64,000 nucleotides of DNA from an uncultured Actinomycetes bacterium (lineage in GTDB: Bacteria > Actinomycetota > Thermoleophilia > UBA2241). Each line of letters starts with the position of its first letter. The stretch's first letter is position 1. The DNA lies in the NCBI GenBank assembly GCA_963725665.1, contig CAVRZA010000004.1:192001-256000 (forward strand), in the 5' to 3' direction. The position numbers were made by a program, and so were the translations under genes. The notes beneath the pieces are model-generated. The model ran no database searches. It had not been told where the DNA came from and was given only the letters and a program-made list of their open reading frames with translations. Positions 1 through 12,835 of the stretch are shown piece by piece.

Positions 1-1380
1 CGGCTGCTTCATGATCGCCGAGAGGCGAAAGGCGGGCCGCATGTAGTCGGTGAAGACGAAGAAGGTGGCCACGTAGGGGCGCACGCCCCCGTGCAGGGCC
101 ATGCCGTTGCCGATCGCCGCCATGGCGTGCTCGCGCACGCCGAAGTGGAAGTTGCGCCCCGCGGGCGTCGTCGCCTGCTGGTCGGGCACGTCCTTGATCA
201 GGGTGTTGTTCGAGGGCGCGAGGTCGGCCGAGCCGCCGATCAAGGTGGGCAGACGCGGCGCCAGCGCGTTGATGACCTTGCCAGACGCCACGCGGGTCGC
301 GACCGCGCCGTCCTCGGGCTTGAACAGCGGCAGGTCGGCGTCCCAGCCCTCAGGCAGGGTCCGCGACCAGGCATCCTGCCACGCCTTCGCCCGGGCGAGG
401 TCGGACGCCCTCCACGCCTTGAGACGCTCGTTCCAGGCGGCGTGCGCGGCTGCGCCGCGTCGCGCCGCCTCCTCGTAGAACGCCCTAACCTCGTCGGGCA
501 CCAAGAAGGTCGGCTCGAGGGGCCAGCCGAGGTTCTCCTTGGTCAGCTTGACCTCGTCGGCGCCGAGCGGCGCGCCGTGGGCGCCGGCGGAGTCCTGCTT
601 GTTGGGCGAGCCGAAGGCGATGTGAGTGCGCACAGCGATGAACGACGGCCTGCCCGTCTCGGCCTTGGCCGCGGCGATCGCCGCGTCGATGGCCTCGAGG
701 TCGTTGCCGTCGCCGACGCGCTGCACGTGCCAGCCGTAGGCGGCGAAGCGCGCACACACGTCCTCGGTGAAGGCGAGGTCGGTCGAGCCGTCGATGGTGA
801 TGTGGTTGTCGTCGTAGATGACGATGAGCTTGCCGAGCTTCTGGTGGCCGGCGAACGACGCCGCCTCACTGCTCACGCCCTCCATCATGTCGCCGTCACC
901 GGCGAGCACGTAGGTGAAGTGGTCCATCACCTGCGGCCCGTCGCCGTTGAACGTGGCGGCCAGGAAGCGCTCGGCGACGGCCATGCCGACGGCGTTGGCG
1001 AAACCCTGGCCCAGAGGGCCGGTCGTCGTCTCGACGCCGGCGGTGTGGCCGTACTCGGGGTGCCCCGGGGTCCTGCTGCCCCACTGTCTGAAGGCGCGCA
1101 GGTCGTCGAGCGTCACGTCGTAGCCCGTGAGGTGAAGCAGGGAGTAGAGCAGCATGCTGGCATGGCCGGCCGACAGCACGAAGCGGTCGCGGTTTGGCCA
1201 AGCCGGGTCGGCCGGGTCGAAGCGCAGGTGCCGCGTGAACAGCGTGTGCGCTACGGGCGCCGCGCCCATCGGCATGCCGGGATGCCCGGAGTTGGCTTTC
1301 TGCACTCCGTCGACGGCGAGGAATCGGATCGTGTCGATGCAGCGTTCTTCGAGACTCTGTGCACTCGCCACTGGGATCAT
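1..1380 (-). CDS. tkt: Transketolase (5' part; runs off the window start)
   Basis: Manual translation of the minus strand from ATG at 1380 gives [42 protein letters not shown]. It later contains [17 protein letters not shown] and the TPP motif [17 protein letters not shown] upstream. Not in the ORF track because it is truncated. Confidence 0.95.
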
Positions 1381-1501
1381 CTGCGTCCTTTCGTCCCCGC
1401 CGTCACCAGGGCGATGCGGCGGACGCTCGTCCGCCTCGCCCCCACGGGCGGGATCGGGTGGGTGGTCGGCCGGACAGTGTTGCGCTCGCGGAGGCAGAGC
1501 C

Positions 1502-1542
1502 CGGCGGGCGCCCTCCCGCCCGAGGCGGGAGGGCGCCCGCCG
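1502..1542. terminator. Perfect 19-bp inverted repeat between the aminotransferase gene and tkt
   Basis: cggcgggcgccctcccgcc-cga-ggcgggagggcgcccgccg; no U-tract. Confidence 0.55.
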
Positions 1543-1578
1543 TCAGCGGGCGCGTGTCTTGGTCGTGGCGCGTAGGGC

Positions 1579-2685
1579 CTAGCCGAAGTACTCGCGGACG
1601 AACTTGACGAAGCGCTCGTTCTCGGCGACCGTGCCCGGCGTGACCCTGAAGTAGCCCTCTTTGCCGTTGATCGGCTTGATGGTCTTGATGAGGACCTGGT
1701 AGCCCTCCTTGGCGGCGTCGACCATCTCCTGCGACGTCTTGCCGGTCACGCCGGCGTCGACGAGCATGTAGTTGCCGTGCGGCGGGTAGGGCTTGAGGCC
1801 CTTGGCCTTCAGCTCCTCGACAAAGCGGTCCATCCACTCGTTGTTGTACTTGACCTTCTCCTTGACCTCCTCGGGGTTATCGAGGATCGCCTCGGCGGCC
1901 GCCATCGCCATCAGGCTCACGTTCCAGGGCAGGTACATGCGGCTGAAGGCCTCGACGAGCTCGGGCACGGCGACGACGTAGCCGAAACGCACACCCGCGA
2001 GGCCGTAGGCCTTGGAGAGGGTGTGCGAGAGGAACACGTGCGGGTACTTCTCGACGAGGTCGATCTTGGCCTCGACCTGCGGATGGTAGTCGAGGTAGGC
2101 CTCATCGACGCAGAGCGGGATGCCCAGCTCGCAGAACTTGGCCAGGTCGGCGTCGTCGATGAAGATCCCCGTCGGGTTGTTGGGGTTGATGATGAGCATC
2201 AACTTGGTCTTCTCGTTGACGGCCGCCAGCATCCCCTCGACGTCGTACTGCAGGTCGGGCTCGCGCAGCGGGATCTGGACGTTCACGCCGCCGCACAGGC
2301 CGGCGCGCGAGGGGAACATCTCGAACGTCGGGATCGAGCAGAGGAACTCGTCGCCCGGCTTCATGAAGATGCGCATCATCGCGTCGATGGTCTCGGAGGA
2401 CCCGTTGGCCACCGCGATGTTGTCCGGGCTCACGCCGTGCAGGTTGGCCAACTTCGTGCGCAGCCGCAGCATCCGGTCCGGGTAGCGGTTGCCCTGCTTG
2501 ATGATGTTGGCGGCCGCGTTGACGACCTTGTCGGAGGGCGGCACGGGGTTCTCGTTGAGCATCATGCGGCCCAACTCCGGATGCGCCCATGCGACGTCGC
2601 AGACGGCGATGCTGTACTGGGGCGCCGTCATCACCCACGGCATGAACAGGTCCTCTACCGGCTTCTTGATCTGCGCCATTCTCAT
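1579..2685 (-). CDS. HisC-family (class I/II) PLP aminotransferase
   Basis: Motifs LNENP, NRYPD, NGSSE, NPNNPTG, VDEAY and TLSKAYGLAGVRFGY (PLP lysine); not in a his operon. Confidence 0.9.
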   Translation of the reverse strand: MRMAQIKKPVEDLFMPWVMTAPQYSIAVCDVAWAHPELGRMMLNENPVPPSDKVVNAAANIIKQGNRYPDRMLRLRTKLANLHGVSPDNIAVANGSSETIDAMMRIFMKPGDEFLCSIPTFEMFPSRAGLCGGVNVQIPLREPDLQYDVEGMLAAVNEKTKLMLIINPNNPTGIFIDDADLAKFCELGIPLCVDEAYLDYHPQVEAKIDLVEKYPHVFLSHTLSKAYGLAGVRFGYVVAVPELVEAFSRMYLPWNVSLMAMAAAEAILDNPEEVKEKVKYNNEWMDRFVEELKAKGLKPYPPHGNYMLVDAGVTGKTSQEMVDAAKEGYQVLIKTIKPINGKEGYFRVTPGTVAENERFVKFVREYFG

Positions 2686-2712
2686 CCGTCCTTCCTCGTC
2701 AGGGGATCGTCG

Positions 2713-3936
2713 TCAAGCGGGTGTCGGAGCCGCGAAGCAGCTTCCTTCGAGGCACTTGCCTGCGAACTCGACCATGTCGTTGGTGGCCTTGCTGAACTGC
2801 TCCGCCGTCTTCACCAGCGCCGGGTGCGTGTTGTACTCGTCCCTGGTGTAGCCGTCCTCGCGGTAGGCGCGCTCGAAATAGGGCACGCGGAGCAGCTTGT
2901 CCATGACCTCCTCGGGGAAATCCTGCCAGATGCGCCCGCCGTCGTATGTGATGTCCTGGGGGGTGGGGAAGAAGAGCAGCTCGTCGATCAATCCCGGCGG
3001 GCAGGTGACGATGATGTCGCCGCCGGCCTTCTCCTCCAGGTGCCAGATGCGCGTCTTGCCGTCGACGGTCGGTCCCAGACGCAGCGAGCACGACAGCATC
3101 TTGCTCGGGTAGCCGCGCTCCTTGACCGTGCGGTAGGCCTTCTTGAAGATGGCCAGTTCCGCCGTGCGCACATCGGCCTCGGTGAGCTCGATGCCCTCCT
3201 CCTTGGCGAAGTCGCGCAGGCCGCCGAGGTCGCCGTAGCGGGCCTCCATGTGGGTGATCACGGAGCGCCACTTCGAGAGGTCGACGCCGTTGGCCTTGGC
3301 CTTCTCGAGACCCCGCACGACGGTCTTCGCGCAGTCCAGGAGCTGCGACAGGACGAAGGTGAGCGTGTTGTTGGTCGGTATGCCGCGCGAGGTGAGCTCC
3401 TCGATGAGCTGGTAGCCCTGCTTCGTGCCGGGGCACTTGACCATGACGTTCGGGTTGACGGCGTGGATCTCGAGCGCCTGGGCGAGCATCGCGTCGTAGT
3501 CGAAGCAGGAGCGCGGGTCGACCTGGCCCGAGAGGAAGCCCTCCTTGTAGCCGGAGGCCTCGAAGAGGGGCAAGAACATGTCCGATCCGGCCTTCACTAC
3601 CTCTTTGTAGAGCAGCCAGAAGAGCGACTCCTTGTCGAGACCGTCGTGCTCTTCCATAAGACGTTGAGCGACCTTCTCCCAGCGCGGCGGATCGTCCTTG
3701 ATCGCCTGCAAGGAGAGGGGCGGGTTGGTGGTGACCCCGCGGAACAGCTGGCCGAGGGGGTTGTCTCTGTCGTACATGCGCGCGAAATTGCGTCTCAGGG
3801 TCTCCTTGTCGCCCTCGTCCGCCTTGGCCAGCTCCGTCTTGGTGAAGTTCTCGAAGATCACCGGGGAGGAGTCCCACCAGATCTCCATGCCGGGACTCAC
3901 GGCGACCAGCGTCTCCATCAGGTTGTGTTCTTGCAT
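2713..3936 (-). CDS. Transaldolase/fructose-6-phosphate aldolase family protein (atypical active site)
   Basis: WWDS, RGVTTNP, SGQVDP, Schiff-base NVMVKCPGT, TNNTLTF. Confidence 0.85.
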   Translation of the reverse strand: MQEHNLMETLVAVSPGMEIWWDSSPVIFENFTKTELAKADEGDKETLRRNFARMYDRDNPLGQLFRGVTTNPPLSLQAIKDDPPRWEKVAQRLMEEHDGLDKESLFWLLYKEVVKAGSDMFLPLFEASGYKEGFLSGQVDPRSCFDYDAMLAQALEIHAVNPNVMVKCPGTKQGYQLIEELTSRGIPTNNTLTFVLSQLLDCAKTVVRGLEKAKANGVDLSKWRSVITHMEARYGDLGGLRDFAKEEGIELTEADVRTAELAIFKKAYRTVKERGYPSKMLSCSLRLGPTVDGKTRIWHLEEKAGGDIIVTCPPGLIDELLFFPTPQDITYDGGRIWQDFPEEVMDKLLRVPYFERAYREDGYTRDEYNTHPALVKTAEQFSKATNDMVEFAGKCLEGSCFAAPTPA

Positions 3937-4025
3937 GTCTCCTCCTAGCTTCTAGGCTGAAGTGGATAGGGCGCTTCCGGCCCAAACAGCGGGCTCTTGT
4001 GGCCGGCCCCCGGCCGGGCGCGCCC

Positions 4026-4979
4026 TCATTGGTCTGCGAGCCATTTCGGATAGTCGGGGTCGGCGAAGCCGCGCTCGGCGCGTCCGACGCGCTCCATGGC
4101 CCATTCCATGTAGTCGAAATCGATCTTCGACACCGTGTGCTGGATCATCGCCCACACGTCCCACCAGATGGCGGAGACGATCTTGTAGAGCATCATGCGG
4201 CCGAAGAGACGCTCGTCCATGTGGCCCAGGTAGACTTCGATGACGAGCCGCTCCTCCTCACGCGAGTACGGGTGCTCCATGACGTGGTCGCCGAGGTCGA
4301 AGTACGGGTCGGTCATGCCGCCGTACTCCCAGTCGATGATCCACATCTTGCCGTCGGCGTCGATGATGAAGTTCTCCGAGAGCAGGTCGTTCTGGCAAGC
4401 GACGTCGGGGACGGGGTTGCGCGCCGTCGCCTCTTCGATCTCGTCCATTCGCTTCAGCATCGCGGCGAGACGGTCCGGCATGGGAGTGTTGATCTCGCGC
4501 GAGACCTTCGTGTAGCGGCGTAGCATGTCGAAGATCTCGATCTTGTTGCTGAAGACGGCCTTGTCGTGGTACACGCGGACCGCCTCGACGGCCTGCTTGA
4601 TGCGCTCCGGGTGCCCGGCCATCGTGTCGGGGTGCATGACCTCGCCGTCGACGAAGTCGATGACCATGGCCTTCTCGGGCTCGATGACGTGGGCGACCTG
4701 GGGGGCCGTGCCGATCCTGGCCGCCTCGAGCATGCACTCGCGCTCGATGTCGCGGTCGATGAACATGTCGGTGCCGGCCCCGGGCACGCGCAGTACGTAC
4801 TTGCCGCCGCCGGGGTTGCCCCAGCCGCCGTTCACCCAGATGATGTAGTTGTGGTTGGTGATGCCGCCCGGGAGCTCCTCCCAGCGGATGTCCTTGCCCT
4901 TCCAGTCGTCGATGCGCGCCACGGCCTCTTCGGGAGTCAGTCCGTGTGCCTTGTGGGTCTCGGTCGTCTCGCCTCCCAT
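4026..4979 (-). CDS. Choline/ethanolamine kinase family phosphotransferase
   Basis: LPGGITNHNY, YVLRVPG, IDRDIE, Brenner motif CQNDLLSENF, IIDWEYGGMTDPYFDL. Start chosen at the ATG after the AAGGAGG RBS. Confidence 0.88.
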   Translation of the reverse strand: MGGETTETHKAHGLTPEEAVARIDDWKGKDIRWEELPGGITNHNYIIWVNGGWGNPGGGKYVLRVPGAGTDMFIDRDIERECMLEAARIGTAPQVAHVIEPEKAMVIDFVDGEVMHPDTMAGHPERIKQAVEAVRVYHDKAVFSNKIEIFDMLRRYTKVSREINTPMPDRLAAMLKRMDEIEEATARNPVPDVACQNDLLSENFIIDADGKMWIIDWEYGGMTDPYFDLGDHVMEHPYSREEERLVIEVYLGHMDERLFGRMMLYKIVSAIWWDVWAMIQHTVSKIDFDYMEWAMERVGRAERGFADPDYPKWLADQ

Positions 4980-5060
4980 TCCCCCTCCTTCTCTCATCTG
5001 CCGGTTGCAGCGGTGGGAAAGCCTGGTCTTCCCCGTCGCGTAGGAACGTTGCGGATCATC

Positions 5061-6443
5061 TCAGGAGACCGGGACCTCGAGTCCCATGGCGGCAAGTTCG
5101 GAGCGAACCTCGTCCATCACCTTGAGGTAGTCATCATTGATGATCCGCTTGCTCTTCGGGTCGTAAACCTCCTGGAAAGTGAGTCCTTTCTCGGGATCCT
5201 TCAGCTTGTCGCCGAACAGTGGATAGAGCTTCTGCGCGATCGGCTCGGCCTGCGCGCGCGTCAGCTTGGCGGCGGCGAGGCCCATCTCGGCGTGGAACTT
5301 GTGGTCGTCGGGCACCAGCGAGTCGGACTGCACCGCCATCGCCGGGTGGCCGGAGAAGACGTTGCCGCCGGAGGTCACCACAGCGAGCAGGTAGCAGGCC
5401 ATCTCGTGGTGGTACTGCTTGGTCCCCGAGCCGCCGCCGAGGTAGGGCAGGTTGACCATCGGGTAGCGCATGTTGCGCCCGATGGCCGCGTTCGACATGG
5501 CGATCGCCCAGATCAGCGGCTTCGTCGATGAGAGGTGCAGCTTGCTGTGCAGCGGTGCGTTGTAGTGGTAGCTGCCGCGGAAGATCAGGTTGCCCATGAT
5601 CATGTAGCAGGTCGCCGTGACGGCCACGCCCTCGGCGCCGCCCGCGTAGCCCCCGAAGAGCGGCGTCGAGGTCGAGCCGATGTTGGCGCTGATGCTGTTG
5701 TAGAAGGCCACCTTCTGCAGCGCCTCGTAACCGACCACCATCTCGCTGAGGAAGTCGATGAGGAAGCCGTCGCTGGGGCGCAGGCCGAAGTCGGGATAGC
5801 TGGCGGCGAACATCGAAGCCGGCTGCGAGGCGGCCGAGATGCCGTTGATGATGGGCAGGCCGGCGCGGCCCGACCGGCGTATCCCCTCGCGCGCCAGGCG
5901 CACCGTCTTGCACGCGGCGAGGACCTCCTGCGGCGAGCGCACGCGCGCATCCCTGCCGCGGAGGTGCAGGATCGACGGGACGCTCACCGAGTCGACGATG
6001 CTGAAGGACGCCATCTTCTCGACGGTATCCATGTAGACCTGCTCGTCGGTGGTGTAGATGCCGCCGCCCACGTGCACCCACGGACGGTCGTCCGTGGTGT
6101 CGGGGCGGCGGCCGTACATCGTCTTGCGCTCACGTCCCTCGCCGAAGGTCGCGCCGGTGGGGCACTGTGCGCAGGCGGTGAGGATCTCGTCGCGCGTGAA
6201 CTCCATGACGCGGTTGGTCTCGGGGCAGTAGCCGCCGGCCTCGGCCAGCAGGTCGACGGCCGCCTGGAAGACCCGGTCCGTAAGGTCGTCGTCGGTGTTG
6301 ATGATGGTCTCTCTGTCCCACTTGATCTGATGGCGCACGATCAGCTCGGCGAGCTTGGGGACGTAGCGCTTCATGTAGTAGTCGATCTCCGAGGTGAGCG
6401 GACCAGTCTCGGCGCGATCGAATACCTCGATCAGGTCAATCAT
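5061..6443 (-). CDS. Monomethylamine:corrinoid methyltransferase (MtmB) family, non-pyrrolysine
   Basis: 460 aa; DRAETGP N-terminus, DDDLTDRVFQAAVDLL, PLFGGYAGGAEG, C-terminal KGLTFQEVYD; no in-frame TAG. Confidence 0.85.
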   Translation of the reverse strand: MIDLIEVFDRAETGPLTSEIDYYMKRYVPKLAELIVRHQIKWDRETIINTDDDLTDRVFQAAVDLLAEAGGYCPETNRVMEFTRDEILTACAQCPTGATFGEGRERKTMYGRRPDTTDDRPWVHVGGGIYTTDEQVYMDTVEKMASFSIVDSVSVPSILHLRGRDARVRSPQEVLAACKTVRLAREGIRRSGRAGLPIINGISAASQPASMFAASYPDFGLRPSDGFLIDFLSEMVVGYEALQKVAFYNSISANIGSTSTPLFGGYAGGAEGVAVTATCYMIMGNLIFRGSYHYNAPLHSKLHLSSTKPLIWAIAMSNAAIGRNMRYPMVNLPYLGGGSGTKQYHHEMACYLLAVVTSGGNVFSGHPAMAVQSDSLVPDDHKFHAEMGLAAAKLTRAQAEPIAQKLYPLFGDKLKDPEKGLTFQEVYDPKSKRIINDDYLKVMDEVRSELAAMGLEVPVS

Positions 6444-6530
6444 TGAATGCTCCTTCAGGTCGGGCCGCCGTTGGCGCGGGGTTGCGGGTCGACGACGCCG
6501 TCATCGCGAAGTCGCTCTCGGCGCCCGTCG

Positions 6531-7175
6531 TCACGCGAGCTCCGTAGCCACCATCACGGCTTCGTAGGCCGAGGCCGCCCAGCCGTCGGCGCCGATCTGG
6601 TCGGCCCACGCCTGAGTGGTAGCCCCACCTCCGACCATGACCTGGTACTTGTCGCGCGTCCCTTGCTCCTTGAGCGCTTCGATCAGGTCGCGCTGCCCTA
6701 CCAGCGTAGTGGTCAGCAAGGCAGACATGGCGATGATGTCCGCGTCGACCTCCTTCGCCTTGTCGACGAACTTGAAGAGGTCGACGTCGATGCCCAGGTC
6801 CCAGACCTCGAAGCCCGACGTCTCGAAGAGGAGTCTGAGGATGTTCTTGCCGATCGAATGCAGGTCGCCCTTGACCGTGCCGAGGACGATCTTGCCCTTC
6901 TTGGGCCCCTCGCCGCCGCTCTCCCTGATCTTTGGCTCGAGGATCTCCATGGCCGCTTGAAAGGCCAGCGCGGCCTGCATCAGCTCGGGCAGGAAGATCT
7001 CCTCGCACTCGAACTGCTCGCCGATCACGTTGAGCCCGGGCAGAAGCCCCTGATCGATGATGGCTTTCGCCTCGACACCCTCGGCGAGGGCATCGTCGAC
7101 CGCCGCGAGGACCGCGTCCTGGTCCTGGTCGATGACCGCCTGCTTGAGCTTCTCAAAGACCTGTTCGTCTGTCAT
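6531..7175 (-). CDS. Methyltransferase cognate corrinoid protein (MtmC/MttC-like)
   Basis: Cap domain EIFLPEL, B12 motif GTVKGDLHSIGKN, SALLTTT, VMVGG. Confidence 0.93.
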   Translation of the reverse strand: MTDEQVFEKLKQAVIDQDQDAVLAAVDDALAEGVEAKAIIDQGLLPGLNVIGEQFECEEIFLPELMQAALAFQAAMEILEPKIRESGGEGPKKGKIVLGTVKGDLHSIGKNILRLLFETSGFEVWDLGIDVDLFKFVDKAKEVDADIIAMSALLTTTLVGQRDLIEALKEQGTRDKYQVMVGGGATTQAWADQIGADGWAASAYEAVMVATELA

Positions 7176-7253
7176 CTGGTGCGCTCCCTGTCCCTTCTTC
7201 AGCCTGCGCTGTTGTTCAGGCCGATCGTCGCCCGTGTCGTGGCCGCCGGGTCG

Positions 7254-8711
7254 TCACGCCCGCGCTTCTTCCAGGGGCACGGCGTCGCCGGCGACGATGC
7301 CGGGGAAGCGTTCCCTGATGGCATCGTCGAGGTCGGCGTCCCACACCGCCGGATTGGCCTGCGAAAGGATGCGCAGCGCCTCGGCGAGCGCGCGCGAGCG
7401 GATCTCGGGCCGTCCCGCATCCTCCCACTGGGGCCGCATGCCGCGGTCGGCCAGCCGCGGCAGCACCGCGGTGGTCCGCATGCGCGCCTTCGTGTGCTTG
7501 CGGCCCATGTAGCTGCCGCCGGGGCCGACCGCGGCGATCTCGTCGATGGCCAGGTTCTCGTCGCTGAACTCGAGGCCCCGCCAGACGCGCTTGTCCATGA
7601 GCGCGACCTCGTTGTCGATGACGCACTTGGCGAAGTCGAAGGCCATGAGCGAGCTCAGGAGGCCGCCCATGTTGAGCAGCGTCGCGCCGGCGGCGACGCC
7701 GAGGAGCGTGTTCATCCCCGTTTCAAAGCCCGACTGCGCGTCGTTGGCGTGCGCGTTGGTGAGGCCGATGTAGCCCCCGGAGGGCACGTCGTAGTAGCGC
7801 GCCATCTGCGCCACGCCAGCCAGGAGCATGCCGGTCTCGATGGCGCCGGGGGCGTAGGCGCCCGTGCGCATGTCCGCCACGGTGGGCAGGCTGGCGTAGA
7901 TCACCGGTGTGCCCTCGGCGACCATCTGCTGCAGCGCGGTGATTGCGAGGAACTCGGCATTGGCGACGACCAGACAGCCCAGCAGCGTCATCGGCGCCGT
8001 GAGCCCCGCGTTGGGCACCACCGTCGTGTAGACGGGCAGGCGCCGCTCCGTGAGCCACATGACCGCCTCGGTCGAGTCGACGTCCATCGTGAGTGGGCTG
8101 ACCATGGGGCAGTAGTGGTGGTTGATGATCGGGCGCTCACGGTAGGCATCCGCGCCCCCGGCGATGAGCTCGCCAAGCGCGATCACCTGGCGTAGGTCGT
8201 CCATGGTGGGCGTGTTGCTGCGCACCGGCTTGAGGCAGTTCTTCAGCGCGGGATAGAAGCGGCTCAGGCTGTGCTGCCCGGGCGGGGCGTCGTCGGCCAG
8301 CGTAGAGATGCTGAAGACGTCGAACCCGGGCAGCTCGTTGATGAGGTAGGCGATAGTGGCGATGTCGGTGGAAGTCGCGCGGCGTTCTACGCCGGTGACC
8401 GGGTCGACCACGTTGGGCGCCGAGGAGCCGGTGACGACGACGGGACCGTCGTCGGGGATGGTGCGGTCGAACCCGGGGTCGCGGCCGCGGAACGTGAAGC
8501 TGCCCGGCGCCATCGTGCGATATCTCTCCACGACGGCGCCGGGCAGCTTCACGAGGCCGGTCTCGTCGTCGACGAGGCACCCATGCTGGGCGAGTATCTC
8601 TCTCGCGCGCGCGTTGTGCGCGAGGACGCCGACCGACTCGAGGACCTCGAGCGAGGCCTCGTGGGTGCGCTCGACCTCCTCCGGCGTGAGCAGTTCGAAG
8701 AACGCTGCCAT
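7254..8711 (-). CDS. Trimethylamine methyltransferase (MttB superfamily), non-pyrrolysine
   Basis: HEASLEVLESVGV, AGLTAPMTLLG, DMRTG, YYDVPSGGYIGLTNAHANDAQSGFE (Leu at the Pyl-equivalent site), VGPGGSYM. Confidence 0.92.
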   Translation of the reverse strand: MAAFFELLTPEEVERTHEASLEVLESVGVLAHNARAREILAQHGCLVDDETGLVKLPGAVVERYRTMAPGSFTFRGRDPGFDRTIPDDGPVVVTGSSAPNVVDPVTGVERRATSTDIATIAYLINELPGFDVFSISTLADDAPPGQHSLSRFYPALKNCLKPVRSNTPTMDDLRQVIALGELIAGGADAYRERPIINHHYCPMVSPLTMDVDSTEAVMWLTERRLPVYTTVVPNAGLTAPMTLLGCLVVANAEFLAITALQQMVAEGTPVIYASLPTVADMRTGAYAPGAIETGMLLAGVAQMARYYDVPSGGYIGLTNAHANDAQSGFETGMNTLLGVAAGATLLNMGGLLSSLMAFDFAKCVIDNEVALMDKRVWRGLEFSDENLAIDEIAAVGPGGSYMGRKHTKARMRTTAVLPRLADRGMRPQWEDAGRPEIRSRALAEALRILSQANPAVWDADLDDAIRERFPGIVAGDAVPLEEARA

Positions 8712-8716
8712 CAGGC

Positions 8717-10006
8717 CTACACCTCACTCTCGCCGGCGGGGGCCGGGGTGGCGGGGGACTGGGCACGGGCGGGATCCGAGCCAGCGACGACGGCCGCCGA
8801 CGCGGCGATCTCGGCCAGCTCTGCAATGTGGCTCTCAATGAACTCAATCAACTTCACCTGATGCTCGAGGTACATGAGGTACTCGTCGTCGTTGCGCGCT
8901 GTCTTGTCCTCGTAGTAGGCGGTGACGTCCCAGTTGAGTACGTACAGGTTGCCGTTGGCGATCATGCGCGGCAGCAGCGCCAGCTCGGCCGCCGACATGG
9001 GACCGGGCTCGTCGTGCCTGGCAGCCTCGTCCTGGTAGGCGCGCACGAAGATGGCGGTCTTGTCGAGCCACAGCTCACCGCTGTCCGGCCCCTCCCAGGA
9101 GCTGCAGAAGTACGCCAGGGCGAGGCCCAGGTCAAAGAGGCGGTAGTCGAGCTTCGACCAGTCGAAGTCGAAGAAGCCGGTGCACGAGGACCCAGACCAC
9201 TCCACGGGGCGCATCGCGACGGCCTCCTGGTCGACCCACTTGAGGTTGCCGGGGTGGAAGTCGCAGTGCACTGGGATGAAGGGCATCCCCAGCAGCTGTG
9301 GCTCGATCGCGGTCCCCTTCTCGATGACCTCGAGGATCGCCGGCAGCTTGGCGAGGAAGTATTCGTCACTGCGCGTGTCGGTCGCTTGGGTCGCGCAGTC
9401 CTTGAAGGTGGCCGGAAGGCTGCGCAGCAGGTCCATGATCGGCGGCTGTTCGCGGGCGAGGCCTCGCGGATCGAAGTCGTGAGCGCAATAGTGGAAGTCG
9501 GACAGCACGCGCGCCGCGCTGTCAAGCTCTCTGTCGGTGCAGCGGTTCTTGACCCACGTGTACCTGTCCGCGCCGCTGAGCATCTCGTAGACGGCGAAGA
9601 AACGCACGAGCGTTCCGCCGTCGAGGACCTCCTCCCGAGTGACGAACGTGCCCGCGGCTTTGGTCGGGAAGACCTGCGCCGCCAAGTGGAAGCCTTTGCG
9701 GTTGATGTGACTCACGAGCGCGTGCTCGAAGCGGACTTCGCGCTCGGTGATGGCGCGGTTGTACTTGCGCACGAAGTAGCGGCGCTCACCGCTGCCGTCG
9801 TCGGCCCAGATGGCGAAGCTCAGGTTGACGTAGCCGCCGGTGATCTGTTCGATGCGCACGAACGCGCCCAGGTCGTAGTCGGTGGTGAAGACCTCGACGA
9901 GCTGCCCGGCGAGGAACTCCCATTCCAGCACGTCGCGCAGATGCGTGGTCTCCGCGACGAGGCTCTTCGTCAGCTCGAACAGCTCGTTCGCTCGCCGTAT
10001 GTCCAC
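8717..10006 (-). CDS. APH / type II homoserine kinase-like phosphotransferase
   Basis: ITGGYVNLSF, VHCDFHPGN, FFDFDW, DYRLFDL. Confidence 0.85.
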   Translation of the reverse strand: MDIRRANELFELTKSLVAETTHLRDVLEWEFLAGQLVEVFTTDYDLGAFVRIEQITGGYVNLSFAIWADDGSGERRYFVRKYNRAITEREVRFEHALVSHINRKGFHLAAQVFPTKAAGTFVTREEVLDGGTLVRFFAVYEMLSGADRYTWVKNRCTDRELDSAARVLSDFHYCAHDFDPRGLAREQPPIMDLLRSLPATFKDCATQATDTRSDEYFLAKLPAILEVIEKGTAIEPQLLGMPFIPVHCDFHPGNLKWVDQEAVAMRPVEWSGSSCTGFFDFDWSKLDYRLFDLGLALAYFCSSWEGPDSGELWLDKTAIFVRAYQDEAARHDEPGPMSAAELALLPRMIANGNLYVLNWDVTAYYEDKTARNDDEYLMYLEHQVKLIEFIESHIAELAEIAASAAVVAGSDPARAQSPATPAPAGESEV

Positions 10007-10031
10007 AGCGCTCCCCCTCAGATCCGTGCCT

Positions 10032-10844
10032 TCACGCGACGACGCACCGCATCCCCGCGCGCTCTATCTGCTCGCGCGCGGGCTCCTCGACGCTGTCGTC
10101 TATCACGACCACGTCGACCTGGTCCGCGCGACAGATCACCACGTCGGCGACCACGCCGATCTTGCTGCGGTCGGCGAGCACGATCACCTCGCCGCGCGTG
10201 TGGTCGATCATCGCGCCTTCGATGCTGGCCATGGCGAGGCTCGGTGTGGTCACGCCCTCTTCGAGGTCGAACCCGTCGGCGCCGATCAACGTCTTGCCGG
10301 CGCGGAAGCGTTCCAGGTGCTCGAGGGCCGGCGGACCCTCGACCGCGTTCGTGCGCGGGCTGTAGAACCCGCCCAGCAGGATGAGCTCGAGGCGCAAGCC
10401 TTGGGCCTCGGTCACGGCGCCGACGTTGTGCGTGATCACCCGCGCCTGGAGCGCGGGATCGACGTGGCGCAGAACGCGTGCCGCCGTGGTGCCGTTGCTC
10501 AGGAACACCGTCTCGCCGGGCTGGATCATGGCCGCCGCCGCCTTGGCGATGCGCCCTTTCTCCTCCGTGTGCGCCGCCGCGCGCTCGACGTAGAGCGGCT
10601 CTTCGAGCATATGGCGCTTGAGGATCGCGCCGCCGTGGGTGCGCAACAGCATGCCCTCGGCTTCGAGCCGCTCGAGGTCCCTGCGGATGGTCATCTCCGA
10701 GACGCCGAGATCCTCGCTCAGCGACGAGACGCGCACCTCGCGCCGCTCGTTGAGGATCTCGACGATGCGCACGCGGCGCCCGGCTGGGATCATCTCACGG
10801 ACCTCAGGGACTCCTGTCGGTGACACTGGTTCCCTTGTGCTCAT
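10032..10844 (-). CDS. DeoR/GlpR family transcriptional regulator
   Basis: HTH VSEMTIRRDLERLE, RTHGGA, EKGRIAKAAA, GTT motif; start codon uncertain. Confidence 0.92.
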   Translation of the reverse strand: MSTREPVSPTGVPEVREMIPAGRRVRIVEILNERREVRVSSLSEDLGVSEMTIRRDLERLEAEGMLLRTHGGAILKRHMLEEPLYVERAAAHTEEKGRIAKAAAAMIQPGETVFLSNGTTAARVLRHVDPALQARVITHNVGAVTEAQGLRLELILLGGFYSPRTNAVEGPPALEHLERFRAGKTLIGADGFDLEEGVTTPSLAMASIEGAMIDHTRGEVIVLADRSKIGVVADVVICRADQVDVVVIDDSVEEPAREQIERAGMRCVVA

Positions 10845-10878
10845 GGTTGCCGCCCGGCGATTCCGAACATAGTCGCAC

Positions 10879-10889
10879 ACATCATAGCA
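10879..10889 (-). promoter_or_regulatory. Extended -10 promoter (TGCTATGAT) for the deoR-led operon; the 9-mer ACATCATAG recurs at 10980-10988
   Basis: Minus strand reads gtgCTATGATgt about 35 nt upstream of the deoR start. Confidence 0.45.
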
Positions 10890-11046
10890 CTCGCCGACCG
10901 GATTCAAGCTGTGCAGTTCTGGGAGATGTTGGGCGGCCCTGCCGGGTGTTGAGAGTGGCAGACTAGTCGAAAAGTCTTGACATCATAGGAGCCGAGGAAG
11001 AAGGTTGCGCCGACAGGTTTGGCCATGCTGAGCATTGGGGGTCTCT

Positions 11047-12690
11047 ATGGCAGACGCCATGTCCACACCACCGACCGGCAGCGGTCCTCCGGGGGGCGCG
11101 CCAGTCCTCGACGAAGACACCAAGCAGCTCCACGAAATGGGCTACGCCCAGGAGCTCGACCGCCGCATGAGCGGCTTCTCCAACTTCGCGATCTCTTTCA
11201 CCATCATCTCGATTCTGTCGGGCTGCCTCACCGTCTACTCCTTCGGTCTGCAACACGGCGGCCCGCCGGTCATCAACTGGGGCTGGCTGGGCGTCGGCAC
11301 CATCGTGTGCTTCGTCGGCCTGTCGATGGCCGAGATCTGCTCGTCCTACCCGACGGCCGGTGGCCTCTACTACTGGTCGGCCAAGCTGGCGCCCGGCAAG
11401 AGCGGGCCTTGGTGGTCGTGGTTCACCGGCTGGTTCAACCTGCTGGGGCAGGTCGCCGTCACGGCCGGCATCAGCTTCGGCTGCGCCTTCTCGTTCGCGG
11501 CCTTCCTCGCCGAGTACACCAACCAGAGCTACTGGCTGTCGCCGGGGCACGTCCTCGCCGTCCTGTTCGTCGTCCTCGCGTTCCAGGGCCTGTTGAACAC
11601 CTTCAGCATCCGCCTGGTGGCCCTCCTGAACGACATCTCGGTCTGGTGGCACCTCATCGGTGTGGCGGTCATCGTCTTTATCCTGTTCTGGGGGCCCGCG
11701 AAGACGGCAAACGCCAACTCGTTCTCGTTCATGTTCGGCAGCGAGGGGTGGAACGCGTTCGCGGGGCTCTCTGGATTCACGATGCCCGTCTACGTGGCGC
11801 TGCTCGGCCTTCTGAACGCGCAGTACACGTTCACCGGCTACGACGCCTCGGCCCACGTCTCCGAGGAGACGATCAAGGCGAACGTCGCCGCCGCGAAAGG
11901 CATCTTCAACTCCATCTGGGTCTCGCTCATCGCCGGCTTCATCCTGCTCGTCGGCGTGAGCTACGCGATCCCGGACTTCTCGCACCCGGTCAAGTTCGCG
12001 GGGTCGGTGATGACGGACTATGCCTCGTTCGCCGTGGTGTACCCCTGCTGGGCGGCGACCTTCGTTGACGCGGCCGGCAGGTCGGCGGCCCTGCTACTCA
12101 TCCTGGTGGTCGGCGTGGCGCAGTTCTACTGCGGCATGTCGTCGGTCACGGCCAACTCGCGCATGATCTACGCGTTCTCACGCGACGGCGCCGTCCCCGG
12201 TCATCGCCTCTGGCACACGGTGAGCAAGAAGCGGCGCGTCCCCGTCGCCTCGGCCTGGTTCGGCGCCGTGGGAGCGTTCCTCATCTCCATCCCCTACCTG
12301 TGGAACTACACCGCCTACAACGCGGTGGTGGCCACGGCCGTCGTCGGCCTCTACATCGCCTACATGATCCCGGTGATTCTGCGCCGCATCAACTCCAAGG
12401 CGTTCGTGCCGGGCCCGTACAAGCTGAACCCGACGTTCAGCTTCGTGATCAACTGGATCGCCATCATCTGGGTGGTGTTCATCTGCATCGTGTTCCTGCT
12501 GCCGCAGTGGTCACCGATCACTGTCAAAACGTTCAACTACTCGCCTGTCATTGTGGCGGCCGTCATCGGGTTCGCCGGCATCTACTGGTTGGTGAGCGCT
12601 CGCAAGTGGTTCAAGGGACCGAAGGTCCAGGGCACGGCCGAAGAACTCGCCAGGATCGAGCGCGAGCTCACCGAGTTCGACGTAACGTAA
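11047..12690 (+). CDS. APC superfamily permease, ACT-type (amino acid/choline/GABA)
   Basis: LHEMGYAQELDRRMSGFSNFAISF, MAEICSSYPTAGGLYYWS, GYDASAHVSEET, SRMIYAFSRDGA; about 12 TM segments. Confidence 0.9.
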   Translation: MADAMSTPPTGSGPPGGAPVLDEDTKQLHEMGYAQELDRRMSGFSNFAISFTIISILSGCLTVYSFGLQHGGPPVINWGWLGVGTIVCFVGLSMAEICSSYPTAGGLYYWSAKLAPGKSGPWWSWFTGWFNLLGQVAVTAGISFGCAFSFAAFLAEYTNQSYWLSPGHVLAVLFVVLAFQGLLNTFSIRLVALLNDISVWWHLIGVAVIVFILFWGPAKTANANSFSFMFGSEGWNAFAGLSGFTMPVYVALLGLLNAQYTFTGYDASAHVSEETIKANVAAAKGIFNSIWVSLIAGFILLVGVSYAIPDFSHPVKFAGSVMTDYASFAVVYPCWAATFVDAAGRSAALLLILVVGVAQFYCGMSSVTANSRMIYAFSRDGAVPGHRLWHTVSKKRRVPVASAWFGAVGAFLISIPYLWNYTAYNAVVATAVVGLYIAYMIPVILRRINSKAFVPGPYKLNPTFSFVINWIAIIWVVFICIVFLLPQWSPITVKTFNYSPVIVAAVIGFAGIYWLVSARKWFKGPKVQGTAEELARIERELTEFDVT

Positions 12691-12738
12691 GTCATCCAAT
12701 TGCCGTGTGAGCAGACCTCACCCGACAGCCCCGAGTGT

Positions 12739-12780
12739 GCGGACGGGCGGCGCGGCAGCGCCGCCCGTCCGCTTTGTTTT
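12739..12780 (+). terminator. Intrinsic terminator
   Basis: 15-bp perfect stem followed by tttgtttt. Confidence 0.85.
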
Positions 12781-12835
12781 GCAGCTTGGGCGGCGGTATC
12801 GTAGCCTGCGCGACGCTGAGAGCCGAGGAGGGGTC

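What the first reader, a model, noticed from the sequence alone, without database searches (positions are those of the whole stretch)
1..12690. Candidate undescribed pathway: corrinoid demethylation of a choline-like amino alcohol coupled to pentose-phosphate assimilation of its carbon skeleton
Seen: nine closely spaced co-oriented genes, in order deoR, APH kinase, non-Pyl MttB, corrinoid protein, non-Pyl MtmB, choline/ethanolamine kinase, transaldolase-family protein, HisC-like aminotransferase and tkt, divergent from an ACT-type permease. Established: non-Pyl MttB proteins demethylate quaternary amines; the ACT family includes the yeast choline permease Hnm1; HisC transaminates an O-phospho-beta-amino alcohol; DeoR regulators typically sense phosphorylated metabolites. 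Inference: choline or methylethanolamines are imported, phosphorylated and demethylated stepwise (MttB, then MtmB) to phosphoethanolamine, which is transaminated to glycolaldehyde-2-phosphate. Adding a dihydroxyacetone unit to that C2 aldehyde would give xylulose-5-phosphate, a transketolase substrate. This route would avoid CutC/EutBC and trimethylamine release. N-methylated amino-polyols are alternative substrates.
Basis: partly seen in the sequence, partly recalled or inferred. Interest (0 to 1): 0.85.

Follow-up and report, generated by a model that had tools for sequence, protein, structure and literature searches.

The report
Choline-type amine breakdown island, new sugar-phosphate exit
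An uncultured soil and peat actinobacterium carries a gene island that probably strips all methyl groups from a choline-like compound with vitamin-B12 enzymes and then feeds the leftover two-carbon amine phosphate into sugar-phosphate metabolism by a route not found in print.

Summary
Nine co-oriented genes lie on the minus strand at 1-10907: DeoR, APH kinase, non-Pyl MttB, corrinoid protein, non-Pyl MtmB, choline/ethanolamine-kinase family, TAL-like, HisC-like and Tkt. An ACT-type permease is divergent.

- **Conserved core.** The core is TAL-like plus HisC-like. They are adjacent in 46 of 46 assessable Actinomycetota loci and 24 of 27 Desulfobacterota loci. A transketolase follows in 41 of 41 actinobacterial loci.
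- **Dedicated transketolase.** This Tkt is a paralogue separate from the housekeeping tkt-tal pair.
- **Three demethylation systems.** The pair sits beside three unrelated N-demethylation systems: MttB/MtmB/corrinoid, Pyl-MtbB, and DMGDH-like plus ETF.
- **Outside the window.** A Pyl-MtbB, a permease and a phosphoesterase lie just left of the window.
- **Enzyme identity.** The TAL-like protein keeps the Schiff-base lysine but has Gln for Glu96 and Met for Phe178 in 74 of 74 members. The HisC-like protein is not the genome's best hisC.

Kinase-dependent phosphocholine demethylation is already published. The transamination and TAL/Tkt exit turned up in none of five targeted literature searches. 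No enzyme step was assayed.

This scan reached a similar reading earlier on other DNA.

The parts
1..1380 (-). Transketolase, N-terminal 460 aa in the window. The whole gene is G000:C4:191335-193380, 681 aa. It is a paralogue dedicated to this module.
   Evidence: Pfam Transketolase_N 497.7 bits. Full gene scores 900.1 bits to TIGR00232 and is the only full-length Tkt in the genome. In five genomes with two tkt genes, the 79-81% copy follows TAL-like/HisC-like and the 66-67% copy sits with, or in the same genome as, a canonical tal.
1502..1542 (-). Perfect 19-bp-stem hairpin between the HisC-like gene and tkt, with no T run. Possible terminator or attenuator, or an RNA-stabilising element.
1579..2685 (-). 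HisC-family PLP aminotransferase (368 aa). Proposed aminoethyl-phosphate transaminase.
   Evidence: TIGR01141 260.9 bits, below the cut-off of 276.55. PLP Lys, Asn157, Asp184, Tyr187, Arg222 and Arg335 are kept; Arg322 becomes Lys, Asp85 becomes Ser and Tyr110 becomes Phe, all at 95% or more in the family consensus (58 sequences). It lies directly after the TAL-like gene in 46 of 46 actinobacterial loci.
2713..3936 (-). Transaldolase-fold Schiff-base enzyme (407 aa) of a separate, highly conserved subfamily.
   Evidence: TAL_FSA 103.7 bits. NCBIfam transaldolase models are far below cut-off, 101 against 367. AF2 model pLDDT 86.7; best PDB matches are transaldolases, TM 0.68/0.76. Lys132, Asn35, Asn154, Thr156 and Arg181 are kept; Glu96 becomes Gln and Phe178 becomes Met in 74 of 74 members.
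4026..4997 (-). Choline/ethanolamine-kinase family kinase (323 aa).
   Evidence: PF01633 88.9 bits. Best PDB relative is 3DXQ, a 'choline/ethanolamine kinase family protein', 138.8 bits; LicA 4R77 scores 65.6 bits.
5061..6443 (-). Non-pyrrolysine MtmB-family methyltransferase (460 aa).
   Evidence: PF05369 227 bits, full length, no stop. Ser/Ile-Ser aligns with the TAG of the genome's own Pyl-MtmB. 90-91% identical in L034, L036, L041 and L108.
6531..7175 (-). Corrinoid (B12) carrier protein (214 aa). It is the only one in the locus.
   Evidence: B12-binding and B12-binding_2 domains. MtgC/MtbC-type models below cut-off. DxHxxG at residue 104.
7254..8711 (-). Non-pyrrolysine MttB-superfamily methyltransferase (485 aa).
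   Evidence: PF06253 273 bits. Leu aligns with the TAG of an own Pyl-MttB. Best PDB relatives are the glycine betaine methyltransferase MtgB entries 9YCE and 2QNE, about 202 bits.
8717..10006 (-). APH-fold kinase (429 aa), 5 bp upstream of the MttB-like gene. It holds the position that MthK holds next to MthB.
   Evidence: PF01636 73.7 bits. No PDB relative by sequence at E 0.01. Relatives at 51-66% identity lie in the related loci.
10032..10907 (-). DeoR/GlpR-family regulator (291 aa).
   Evidence: HTH_DeoR 61.3 and DeoRC 128.1 bits. A DeoR homologue is present in 29 of 36 large actinobacterial loci.
11035..12690 (+). APC-superfamily permease of the ACT (amino acid/choline) type (551 aa), divergent from DeoR.
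   Evidence: AA_permease_2 190.5 bits. TIGR00907 382.7 bits, below the cut-off of 598.3. Homologue present in 18 of 36 large actinobacterial loci.
12739..12772 (+). Terminator-like hairpin (15 pairs, then a T run) just after the permease stop.
   Evidence: It lies inside the weak ORF 12707-13456, which has no significant Pfam match.

Best explanation
This is a catabolic island for N-methylated 2-aminoethanol head groups: choline or phosphocholine, and dimethyl- and monomethyl-ethanolamine.

**Inferred route**
1. Permeases import the amino alcohol.
2. The APH-type kinase and the choline/ethanolamine-type kinase phosphorylate it.
3. Three corrinoid-dependent methyltransferases remove the N-methyl groups one after another. 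These are the non-Pyl MttB, the Pyl-MtbB just outside the window, and the non-Pyl MtmB.
4. All three hand the methyl groups to the single corrinoid protein. A pterin methyltransferase and a RamA activase encoded elsewhere then pass them to tetrahydrofolate.
5. The product, phosphoethanolamine, is transaminated by the HisC-like enzyme to glycolaldehyde phosphate.
6. The TAL-fold Schiff-base enzyme and the dedicated transketolase join this aldehyde to the sugar-phosphate pool. The product could be xylulose-5-P (transfer of a dihydroxyacetone unit) or erythrulose-4-P (transketolase).
7. DeoR would sense a phosphorylated intermediate.

**Shown:** gene content, conservation, active-site residues, and the separate Tkt paralogue.
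**Inferred:** every substrate, the order of the steps and the C-C chemistry.
For: **Families and tight spacing**.

**Core conservation**
- HisC-like follows TAL-like at 26-130 bp in 46 of 46 actinobacterial loci, and lies within 4.5 kb in 24 of 27 Desulfobacterota loci. Tkt follows in 41 of 41 actinobacterial loci.
- The Tkt is a separate paralogue.
- Two Desulfobacterota loci carry HAD, TAL-like, HisC-like, RpiB and a split transketolase instead. L090 has a full-length Tkt.

**Three non-homologous demethylation modules stand beside the pair**
- MttB/corrinoid/MtmB: L034, L036 and this window.
- Pyl-MtbB: 15 of 49 actinobacterial loci, all with an in-frame TAG. Here it lies 229 bp beyond the tkt stop.
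- DMGDH-like plus EtfBA: 13 of 22 large Desulfobacterota loci.

**The substrate looks like an aminoethyl phosphate**
- Where no kinase is present, the importer's best matches are the PhnS2/T2/U2 2-aminoethylphosphonate ABC models, just under their cut-offs: 331/393, 435/458 and 501/593 bits.
- A bona fide alanine dehydrogenase (497 bits) sits between TAL-like and HisC-like in Desulfobacterales loci. This fits a catabolic transaminase.
- TalB's Arg181, Ser226 and Arg228 (phosphate-binding by recall) are kept in the TAL-like family.

**Other support**
- RamA (2 copies) and pterin-binding methyltransferases (4 copies) exist elsewhere in the genome.
- Precedents: MthK/MthB act on phosphocholine (PMC12155760, abstract and sections 8, 10, 11). 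The non-Pyl MtmB homologue MtqB acts on choline (PMC13044021, abstract and sections 16, 18).
- EutB was not found.
Against: - No assay was done. No substrate is shown for any enzyme.
- In 22 of 36 large actinobacterial loci the triad has no demethylase gene within about 10 kb, and only 11 of 36 have a kinase there. Five of five such genomes do have choline-kinase-family genes elsewhere.
- The TAL-like enzyme lacks both the Glu of transaldolases and the Tyr of fructose-6-P aldolase. A canonical transaldolase or aldolase mechanism is therefore doubtful.
- A Pyl-type MtbB would normally be expected to use free dimethylamine.
- The genome holds about 29 MttB-family genes, so one of them next to any given operon is not rare in itself.
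- Related genomes are kin, so the counts overstate the number of independent events.
- MthB, MthK and MtqB sequences could not be fetched, so orthology to the characterised enzymes is untested.
- A strong hairpin separates the HisC-like gene from tkt.
Confidence: 0.45

Rival explanations
1. Two separate units lie side by side. One is a Mth-like choline/phosphocholine demethylation module, which harvests only methyl groups. The other is an independent permease-DeoR-TAL-like-HisC-like-Tkt module that degrades a different amine. Candidates are free ethanolamine via glycolaldehyde (an FSA-type condensation with GAP would need no kinase), or an amino-polyol whose keto product is a ketose phosphate.
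For: - 22 of 36 large actinobacterial loci have the triad with permease and DeoR but no demethylase within about 10 kb; 25 of 36 have no kinase there.
- The TAL-like enzyme has Gln at the Glu96 position, as FSA does.
- E. limosum stops at DMAE and excretes it (PMC12155760, abstract).
- The genome has about 29 MttB paralogues.
Against: - Three unrelated demethylation systems recur next to the pair in two phyla.
- Kinase-free Desulfobacterota loci use a PhnS2-like importer, which suits an aminoethyl phosph(on)ate.
- In L036 the ten genes form one co-oriented string.
- Type-A genomes have choline-kinase genes elsewhere, 5 of 5.
Confidence: 0.25
2. The conserved pair degrades 2-aminoethylphosphonate and its N-methyl forms. 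HisC-like would replace PhnW, and the TAL-fold lysine enzyme would act on phosphonoacetaldehyde in place of phosphonatase.
For: - The importer's best matches are the PhnS2/PhnT2/PhnU2 models, and the regulator resembles PhnR/PhnF.
- Alanine dehydrogenase fits a pyruvate-dependent transaminase.
- Phosphonatase also uses a Schiff-base lysine (recalled, not checked here).
Against: - The transporter scores are below the equivalog cut-offs.
- The actinobacterial loci carry choline/ethanolamine-type kinases and APC permeases, which a phosphonate does not need.
- A dedicated transketolase and RpiB make no sense for acetaldehyde.
Confidence: 0.1
3. TAL-like and Tkt serve C1 assimilation. They would regenerate pentose phosphates for a ribulose-monophosphate or dihydroxyacetone-type cycle that fixes formaldehyde derived from the methyl groups. 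HisC-like would be a passenger.
For: - The genome has a hexulose-6-phosphate synthase above cut-off, 226.5 bits.
- It has many methylamine methyltransferases.
- Related Actinobacteriota are reported as active methylotrophs in a mire (PMC10805028, passages).
Against: - The tightest link is TAL-like to HisC-like, not to Tkt.
- The pair occurs in anaerobic Syntrophales-type loci without Tkt: 21 of 22 lack one at 60% identity or more.
- The TAL-like enzyme lacks the catalytic Glu and Tyr needed for normal transaldolase or FSA work.
- HPS lies on another contig.
Confidence: 0.07
4. These are ordinary housekeeping pentose-phosphate and histidine genes that happen to lie next to a methyltransferase operon.
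For: - This Tkt is the only full-length transketolase found in this genome.
- The HisC-like score is only just under the hisC cut-off.
Against: - TAL-like orthologues are patchy. At 62% identity or more they are in 10 of 25 sampled genomes of the same family, and in none of the six other families with 11 or more genomes sampled.
- Sister genomes keep a separate tkt-tal pair.
- A better hisC exists.
- Catalytic residues are changed.
- Identity to Desulfobacterota copies is 68-72%.
Confidence: 0.03

Closest known systems
Mth choline (phosphocholine):tetrahydrofolate methyltransferase system of Eubacterium limosum (MthK, MthB, MthC, MthA; PMC12155760, abstract and sections 8, 10, 11 read)
   Same: A kinase gene lies next to a non-Pyl MttB-superfamily gene and a corrinoid-protein gene. 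Phosphorylation comes before demethylation. No trimethylamine is released.
   Different: - This locus has two kinases of different families and three methyltransferase families (MttB, MtbB-Pyl, MtmB) around one corrinoid protein.
- It has no MthA-type gene in the locus.
- It has a downstream aminotransferase, TAL-like enzyme and Tkt module. E. limosum stops at dimethylaminoethanol.
- The paper reports co-localisation in Firmicutes and delta-proteobacteria. Its Tables S4 and S5 could not be seen.
- Sequence orthology to MthB and MthK was not tested.
MtqB/MtqC of Methanococcoides methylutens Q3c (non-Pyl MtmB homologue acting on tetramethylammonium and choline; PMC13044021, abstract and sections 16, 18 read)
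   Same: A non-Pyl MtmB-family methyltransferase is encoded next to a corrinoid protein. Choline is a demonstrated substrate of that family.
   Different: - That system is archaeal and feeds coenzyme M.
- It acts on free choline.
- Orthology was not tested.
- The enzyme here is proposed to act on a monomethyl or other phospho-amine.
Transaldolase B and fructose-6-phosphate aldolase of E. coli (TalB, FsaA)
   Same: - Same fold: Foldseek best hits are transaldolases.
- The Schiff-base Lys is kept, as are Asn35, Asn154, Thr156 and Arg181.
- Gln stands at the Glu96 position, as in FsaA Gln59.
   Different: - Met replaces TalB Phe178 / FsaA Tyr131. The FsaA numbering is recalled.
- It is about 90 aa longer than TalB.
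- It scores far below every NCBIfam transaldolase cut-off.
- It is always paired with a HisC-like gene.
Histidinol-phosphate aminotransferase HisC (E. coli 1FG3 and plant 8BJ1 structures; CobD-type decarboxylases in the same family)
   Same: Same fold and PLP residues, and a basic pair at Arg322/Arg335. The natural substrate of HisC is a 2-amino-alkyl phosphate, which makes phosphoethanolamine a plausible ligand.
   Different: - It scores below the equivalog cut-off.
- Asp85 becomes Ser and Tyr110 becomes Phe. Their role in imidazole binding is recalled, not tested.
- It is not in a his operon.
- The genome has a better hisC.
Sulfoquinovose transaldolase and transketolase pathways (recalled; not looked up here)
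   Same: Dedicated transaldolase- or transketolase-family paralogues process an unusual substituted sugar or aldehyde next to housekeeping PPP enzymes.
   Different: The substrates there are sulfonated sugars. No aminotransferase, kinase or demethylation step is involved.

Membership tests
MttB superfamily, non-pyrrolysine branch | Full-length match to PF06253 without an in-frame TAG. | tested here: met
   273 bits over profile positions 30-490 of 500, open frame. Leu aligns with the TAG of an own Pyl-MttB.
MttB superfamily, non-pyrrolysine branch | A cognate corrinoid protein is encoded next to it. | tested here: met
   The corrinoid protein lies 78 bp downstream and has DxHxxG.
Mth (phosphocholine) system | A kinase gene lies within three genes of the MttB homologue. 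| tested here: met
   The APH kinase lies 5 bp upstream, and a choline-kinase-family gene lies three genes downstream.
Mth (phosphocholine) system | A methylcorrinoid:THF methyltransferase (MthA-type) is encoded in the cluster. | tested here: not met
   No PF00809 match in the locus. The four matches lie on C2, C3 and C6.
Mth (phosphocholine) system | Sequence orthology to MthB and MthK, and activity on phosphocholine. | not testable with these tools
MtmB family (non-Pyl, MtqB-like) | Full-length PF05369 match without TAG. | tested here: met
   227 bits over positions 1-450 of 450. Ser/Ile-Ser stands at the Pyl site.
Dimethylamine methyltransferase MtbB (Pyl) | PF09505 match interrupted by one in-frame TAG at about profile position 354. 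| tested here: met
   429.5 and 169.4 bits on either side of the TAG at L025:14756-14758. This lies outside the window, on its left.
Transaldolase (EC 2.2.1.2) | TIM-barrel transaldolase fold with a Schiff-base lysine. | tested here: met
   pLDDT 86.7; best PDB hit is 3R5E, TM 0.68/0.76. Lys167 aligns with TalB Lys132 in 74 of 74 members.
Transaldolase (EC 2.2.1.2) | Catalytic Glu (TalB Glu96) and Phe178. | tested here: not met
   Gln and Met in 74 of 74 family members. Four canonical Tal proteins of sister genomes keep Glu and Phe.
Transaldolase (EC 2.2.1.2) | Score above a curated NCBIfam cut-off. | tested here: not met
   Best is NF002881, 101 bits against 367.
Fructose-6-phosphate aldolase (FSA) | Gln at the Glu96 position together with the catalytic Tyr (FsaA Tyr131; numbering recalled). 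| tested here: not met
   Gln is present, but Met stands at the Phe178/Tyr position. TIGR00875 scores 33.6 bits against 245.95.
Histidinol-phosphate aminotransferase (HisC) | Score above the TIGR01141 cut-off. | tested here: not met
   260.9 against 276.55. The own C11 copy scores 342.3.
Histidinol-phosphate aminotransferase (HisC) | PLP-binding Lys and fold-type I residues. | tested here: met
   The equivalents of Lys214, Asn157, Asp184, Tyr187, Arg222 and Arg335 are conserved.
Histidinol-phosphate aminotransferase (HisC) | Residues said to hold the imidazole (Asp85, Tyr110; recalled). | tested here: not met
   Ser and Phe, each in at least 95% of 58 family sequences. The role of these residues is recalled, not verified here.
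Transketolase | Full-length match above the TIGR00232 cut-off. | tested here: met
   900.1 bits against 682.25.
ACT (amino acid/choline transporter) family of APC permeases | Match to TIGR00907 above its cut-off. | tested here: not met
   382.7 against 598.3, although it is the best model by far. APC-superfamily membership is met: PF13520, 190.5 bits.
DeoR/GlpR regulators | An HTH_DeoR domain followed by a DeoRC sensor domain. | tested here: met
   61.3 and 128.1 bits.

The most novel reading that the evidence does not exclude
A pathway not found in print assimilates the C2 skeleton of phospholipid head groups. Phosphoethanolamine is transaminated to glycolaldehyde phosphate. A new subfamily of transaldolase-fold enzymes and a dedicated transketolase then build it into pentose or tetrose phosphates. 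The module has moved between Actinomycetota and Desulfobacterota and has been coupled at least three times to different N-demethylation machines (corrinoid/Pyl-dependent or flavin/ETF-dependent). Choline can then be used completely, for carbon, nitrogen and methyl groups, without trimethylamine, acetaldehyde or microcompartments.
Probability: 0.33. Interest if true: 0.85.

Novelty: new variant of a known kind. Interest (0 to 1): 0.72.

Why it matters
Choline and ethanolamine head groups are among the most abundant nitrogenous compounds released from membranes in soil, peat and sediment. Three kinds of route are established:
- cleavage to trimethylamine,
- oxidation via glycine betaine,
- ethanolamine ammonia-lyase or phospho-lyase.

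A demethylate-transaminate-condense route would be a fourth. It would conserve carbon, release no trimethylamine (a methanogenesis substrate) and yield methyl-THF. It would also give functions to four groups of proteins:
- a large, highly conserved 'transaldolase family protein' subfamily (3727 database proteins at E 1e-10 or better),
- a HisC paralogue,
- a transketolase paralogue,
- bacterial non-Pyl MtmB and Pyl-MtbB proteins.

The lineage is related to mire Actinobacteriota that were reported as active methylotrophs (PMC10805028, passages). The route would therefore bear on carbon and methane budgets of peatlands.

Tried and rejected
- **Housekeeping PPP/his genes.** Rejected.
- **Promoter scan.** No sigma-70-like sites were found. 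Terminator-like sites were no more frequent than in shuffles, 7 against 5.7. No inverted repeat was found in the DeoR-permease gap.
- **APH kinase against PDB.** No hit by sequence at E 0.01. I did not fold it.
- **ORF 12707-13456.** It has only insignificant metallo-beta-lactamase hits and holds a terminator-like hairpin, so I left it out.
- **Clusters 11 and 14 in related loci.** Cluster 14 is a weak metallophosphoesterase. Cluster 11 has no family.
- **Literature.** Seven searches in all. Five looked for the downstream route: glycolaldehyde phosphate, phosphoethanolamine, aminotransferase, transaldolase; names of glycolaldehyde phosphate; methylethanolamines and demethylation; aminoethylphosphonate, transaldolase, HisC; phosphoethanolamine catabolism, phnS2. 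None gave a paper describing it. One search was the methyltransferase background search, and (pyrrolysine with Thermoleophilia) gave one incidental paper.
- **Sequencing runs.**
  - No run held half of the stretch's words; the best DNA run held 0.23.
  - Contigs of one run on record as RNA (X20) lie on pieces of the HisC-like, kinase, MtmB-like, MttB-like and APH genes, mostly at 90-95% likeness.
  - These contigs come from relatives, DNA carry-over is not excluded and there was no silent control. I count this as no more than a hint of expression.
- **L102 (Paracoccaceae).** A TAL-like gene stands alone between transposase genes and a zinc-ADH-like gene. It is uninformative.
- **Canonical Tal extraction.** My ORF pick was wrong for 2 of 6 loci (L137, L138). 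Only 4 were used.
- **Asp17 equivalence.** One alignment supports it (Asp22, invariant). Another does not.
- **C11 HisB-like gene.** My first translation used the wrong frame. I corrected it.

Full report
**1. What is there**

The window is G000:C4:192001-256000 of a 3.73-Mb, 68% G+C genome in 12 contigs. It is 97.5% complete with 5% contamination.

ORF listing, codon-position G+C (GC3 0.88-0.97) and family scans give nine co-oriented minus-strand genes:

| Gene | Coordinates |
|---|---|
| DeoR | 10032-10907 |
| APH-fold kinase | 8717-10006 |
| MttB-like | 7254-8711 |
| Corrinoid protein | 6531-7175 |
| MtmB-like | 5061-6443 |
| Choline/ethanolamine-kinase family | 4026-4997 |
| TAL-like | 2713-3936 |
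| HisC-like | 1579-2685 |
| Transketolase | 1-1380, running off the window |

- An APC permease of the ACT type (11035-12690) is divergent from DeoR.
- Gaps between the genes are 5 to 89 bp, except 198 bp before tkt. That gap holds a perfect 19-bp-stem hairpin.
- Both methyltransferase homologues are uninterrupted. At the codon where the genome's own Pyl paralogues have TAG, they have Ser/Ile-Ser (MtmB-like) and Leu (MttB-like).

**2. The locus is larger than the window**

Three plus-strand genes lie left of the window and converge on tkt:
- a weak metallophosphoesterase (315 aa),
- an APC-like permease (579 aa),
- a dimethylamine-methyltransferase homologue with one in-frame TAG. PF09505 scores 429.5 and 169.4 bits on either side of it.

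Its end lies 229 bp from the tkt stop.

The genome can read TAG as pyrrolysine:
- ARAGORN finds a tRNA-Pyl.
- A PylS C-terminal domain scores 314.6 bits.
- A Pyl-type MtmB is present.
- 6 of about 29 MttB-family genes carry one TAG.

The island thus holds all three methylamine-methyltransferase families around a single corrinoid protein. The methylcorrinoid:pterin methyltransferase and the RamA activase are not in the island. The genome has four PF00809 and two RamA matches elsewhere, one pair adjacent on C2.

**3. Conservation elsewhere**

The TAL-like protein belongs to a large and strongly conserved family. 3727 database proteins score E 1e-10 or better, and the best 120 are 76-91% identical.

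A scan of one genome per species returned 107 relatives. The best 80 loci were kept. Sorted by record title, and for L074 by gene order, they are:
- 49 Actinomycetota (mostly Thermoleophilia),
- 30 Desulfobacterota-type (Syntrophales, Desulfobacterales),
- 1 Paracoccaceae.

My tblastn tables give the following:
- **HisC-like.** It follows TAL-like on the same strand at 26-130 bp in 46 of 46 assessable actinobacterial loci. It lies within 4.5 kb in 24 of 27 Desulfobacterota loci; L085, L097 and L099 lack it.
- **Transketolase.** One at 60% identity or more follows in 41 of 41 actinobacterial loci, but in only 1 of 22 Desulfobacterota loci.
- **All ten window genes.** They recur in 2 of 80 loci. 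In L036 they form one co-oriented string. In L034 the methyltransferase block is inverted. L041 and L108 are partial.

The TAL-like/HisC-like(/Tkt) core is the conserved unit.

**4. The core is accessory, and its transketolase is its own paralogue**

- In a sample of 151 genomes of the class, orthologues at 62% identity or more occur in 10 of 25 other genomes of the same family. They occur in none of the six other families with 11 or more genomes sampled. The weaker hits, at 31-35% identity, are ordinary transaldolases.
- Of 41 family genomes, 36 have a transketolase.
- In five genomes with two copies (G158, G160, G164, G166, G168), the 79-81% copy follows TAL-like and HisC-like.
- For G160 and G164 the 66% copy is adjacent to a canonical tal (27-28% identical to TAL-like). 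For the others the fetched stretch ended near it.
- Genomes without TAL-like show tkt followed by a canonical tal in 4 of 7 stretches.
- This genome has only the TAL-linked Tkt, plus a split transketolase on C6 and a short-type Tal on C2.

**5. Recurrent partners**

Gene-cluster maps and family scans show several architectures.

*Actinobacterial loci*
- **Type A:** cytochrome bd, permease, triad, DeoR. It has no demethylase or kinase within about 10 kb.
- **Type B:** two repeats of choline-kinase-family gene, phosphoesterase and APC permease. A Pyl-MtbB then stands directly before the triad. MtbB is present in 15 of 49 loci, and all 15 have an in-frame TAG.
- **Overall:** of 36 loci with at least 12 kb held, 14 contain a corrinoid-type methyltransferase gene and 22 do not.

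*Desulfobacterota loci*
- **Syntrophales-type:** an ABC importer, GntR, TAL-like, HisC-like, EtfB, EtfA and an 806-aa DMGDH/sarcosine-dehydrogenase-type enzyme. The DMGDH-type gene is in 13 of 22 large loci.
- **The importer:** its best NCBIfam models are PhnS2, PhnT2 and PhnU2 (2-aminoethylphosphonate type), at 331/393, 435/458 and 501/593 bits against their cut-offs.
- **Desulfobacterales-type:** one or two genuine alanine dehydrogenases (497 bits) are inserted between TAL-like and HisC-like. Some also have an APH kinase (2 of 30 loci) and, in L090, a full-length Tkt.
- **L103 and L104:** HAD hydrolase, TAL-like, HisC-like, RpiB and a split transketolase.

*What this shows*
- Three unrelated N-demethylation systems are found next to the same pair.
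- Two unrelated kinds of transketolase are found there too.
- Two uptake strategies are used: a permease with a kinase, or a PhnS2-like ABC importer without one.

*Caveat.* Related genomes are not independent. The weight rests on the number of different architectures, not on the locus counts.

**6. What the core enzymes look like**

*TAL-like enzyme*
- It folds confidently (pLDDT 86.7, pTM 0.86). Its best PDB matches are transaldolases: 3R5E at TM 0.68/0.76, then the N. gonorrhoeae and E. coli TalB entries.
- Mapped on E. coli TalB, 74 of 74 family members keep Lys132, Thr33, Asn35, Asn154, Thr156, Arg181 and Ser226. Arg228 is kept in 67 of 74.
- All 74 have Gln for Glu96, Thr for Ser176 and Met for Phe178.
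- Four canonical Tal proteins from sister genomes keep Glu and Phe.
- Gln at this position is the FSA state (FsaA Gln59 in the same alignment). The FSA catalytic Tyr is absent.
- PDB entry titles for TalB E96Q and F178Y variants show that these two positions have been studied by mutation. That they separate transaldolase from aldolase activity is my recollection.
- I conclude that it is a Schiff-base enzyme for a phosphorylated carbonyl compound, not a canonical transaldolase or FSA.

*HisC-like enzyme*
- It keeps the PLP lysine and the fold-type I residues.
- It has Lys for Arg322, Ser for Asp85 and Phe for Tyr110, each in at least 95% of 58 sequences.
- The imidazole-binding role of Asp85 and Tyr110 is recalled, not tested.
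- It scores just below the hisC cut-off.
- The genome has a better-scoring hisC on C11.

**7. Reading**

*What is shared.* The features common to all architectures are:
- a small amine,
- often N-methylated,
- carrying or receiving a phosphate two atoms from the nitrogen,
- losing its amino group to a keto acid,
- ending in sugar-phosphate interconversion.

*Best fit.* Phosphocholine, DMAE-P, MMAE-P and phosphoethanolamine fit best. Choline-kinase-family and APH kinases are present. Published systems show phosphocholine demethylation by a non-Pyl MttB with its kinase (PMC12155760) and choline demethylation by a non-Pyl MtmB (PMC13044021). Phosphoethanolamine is histidinol phosphate without its side chain. 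The kinase-free loci import through a 2-aminoethyl-phosph(on)ate-type transporter.

Alternatively it could take a glycolaldehyde unit from transketolase to give erythrulose-4-P. An RpiB-family isomerase could turn erythrulose-4-P into erythrose-4-P. That reaction is recalled from the Brucella erythritol pathway; the RpiB gene itself was seen in L103 and L104.

*Confidence.*
- General scheme: about 0.45.
- Specific xylulose-5-P chemistry: lower.

*Rivals.*
- Two independent modules, with the triad handling another amine: 0.25.
- Aminoethylphosphonate catabolism: 0.1.
- C1 assimilation, given that HPS is present: 0.07.
- Housekeeping coincidence: 0.03.

**8. Novelty**

- The upstream half is a new variant of a published kind of system. 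It has three methyltransferase families instead of one, two kinases, and an actinobacterial host.
- Expression of Pyl-type mttB and mtbB in mire Actinobacteriota has been reported (PMC10805028, passages).
- The downstream half appeared in none of the five literature searches aimed at it. Subscription journals and supplements were not searchable.
- Earlier notes of this scan on other genomes reached a similar reading (e1-4920995, e1-3094249, e1-3065069). They are not independent evidence. I re-derived their main observations from my own loci.

Noticed in passing
G000:C4:186941-191106 (left of the window; L025:10941-15106): Metallophosphoesterase-like gene, APC-like permease and a dimethylamine-methyltransferase homologue with an in-frame TAG, converging on tkt. 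They belong to the same island but lie outside the finding's coordinates.
   Followed up: yes
G000:C6:343702-343774, C6:296347-297081, C3:245990-247345, and six MttB-family genes with one TAG: The genome has a tRNA-Pyl (CUA), a PylS C-terminal domain, a Pyl-type MtmB and about 29 MttB-family genes. It is a pyrrolysine-using actinobacterial methylamine specialist. A tRNA-Sec is also called at C11:550041-550138.
   Followed up: partly
G000:C11:265300-272703 (L026): A second locus holds a corrinoid protein, a non-Pyl MtmB-like gene (298 bits), a 474-aa gene and a divergent IGPD (HisB)-like gene. These converge on the genome's best-scoring hisC (342 bits) and a 543-aa permease. The 'true' hisC may itself belong to a catabolic set.
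   Followed up: partly
window 30297-31123: Another MtmB-family match is split over three reading frames.
   Followed up: no
G000:C6:479384-479995: A hexulose-6-phosphate synthase scores above its cut-off, in a 578-aa open frame. This points to a ribulose-monophosphate-type formaldehyde route in the same organism.
   Followed up: no
L103:9237-14639 and L104:9238-14707: In two Desulfobacterota genomes the TAL-like/HisC-like pair is flanked by a HAD hydrolase, an RpiB-family isomerase and a split transketolase.
   Followed up: partly
L102:9035-12479: In a Paracoccaceae genome a 69%-identical TAL-like gene stands alone between transposase genes and a zinc-ADH-like gene. This suggests recent transfer.
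   Followed up: no
window 12707-13456: This ORF has good codon statistics but no family. Its first 70 bases hold the strongest terminator-like hairpin of the region, so its start or its reality is doubtful.
   Followed up: partly
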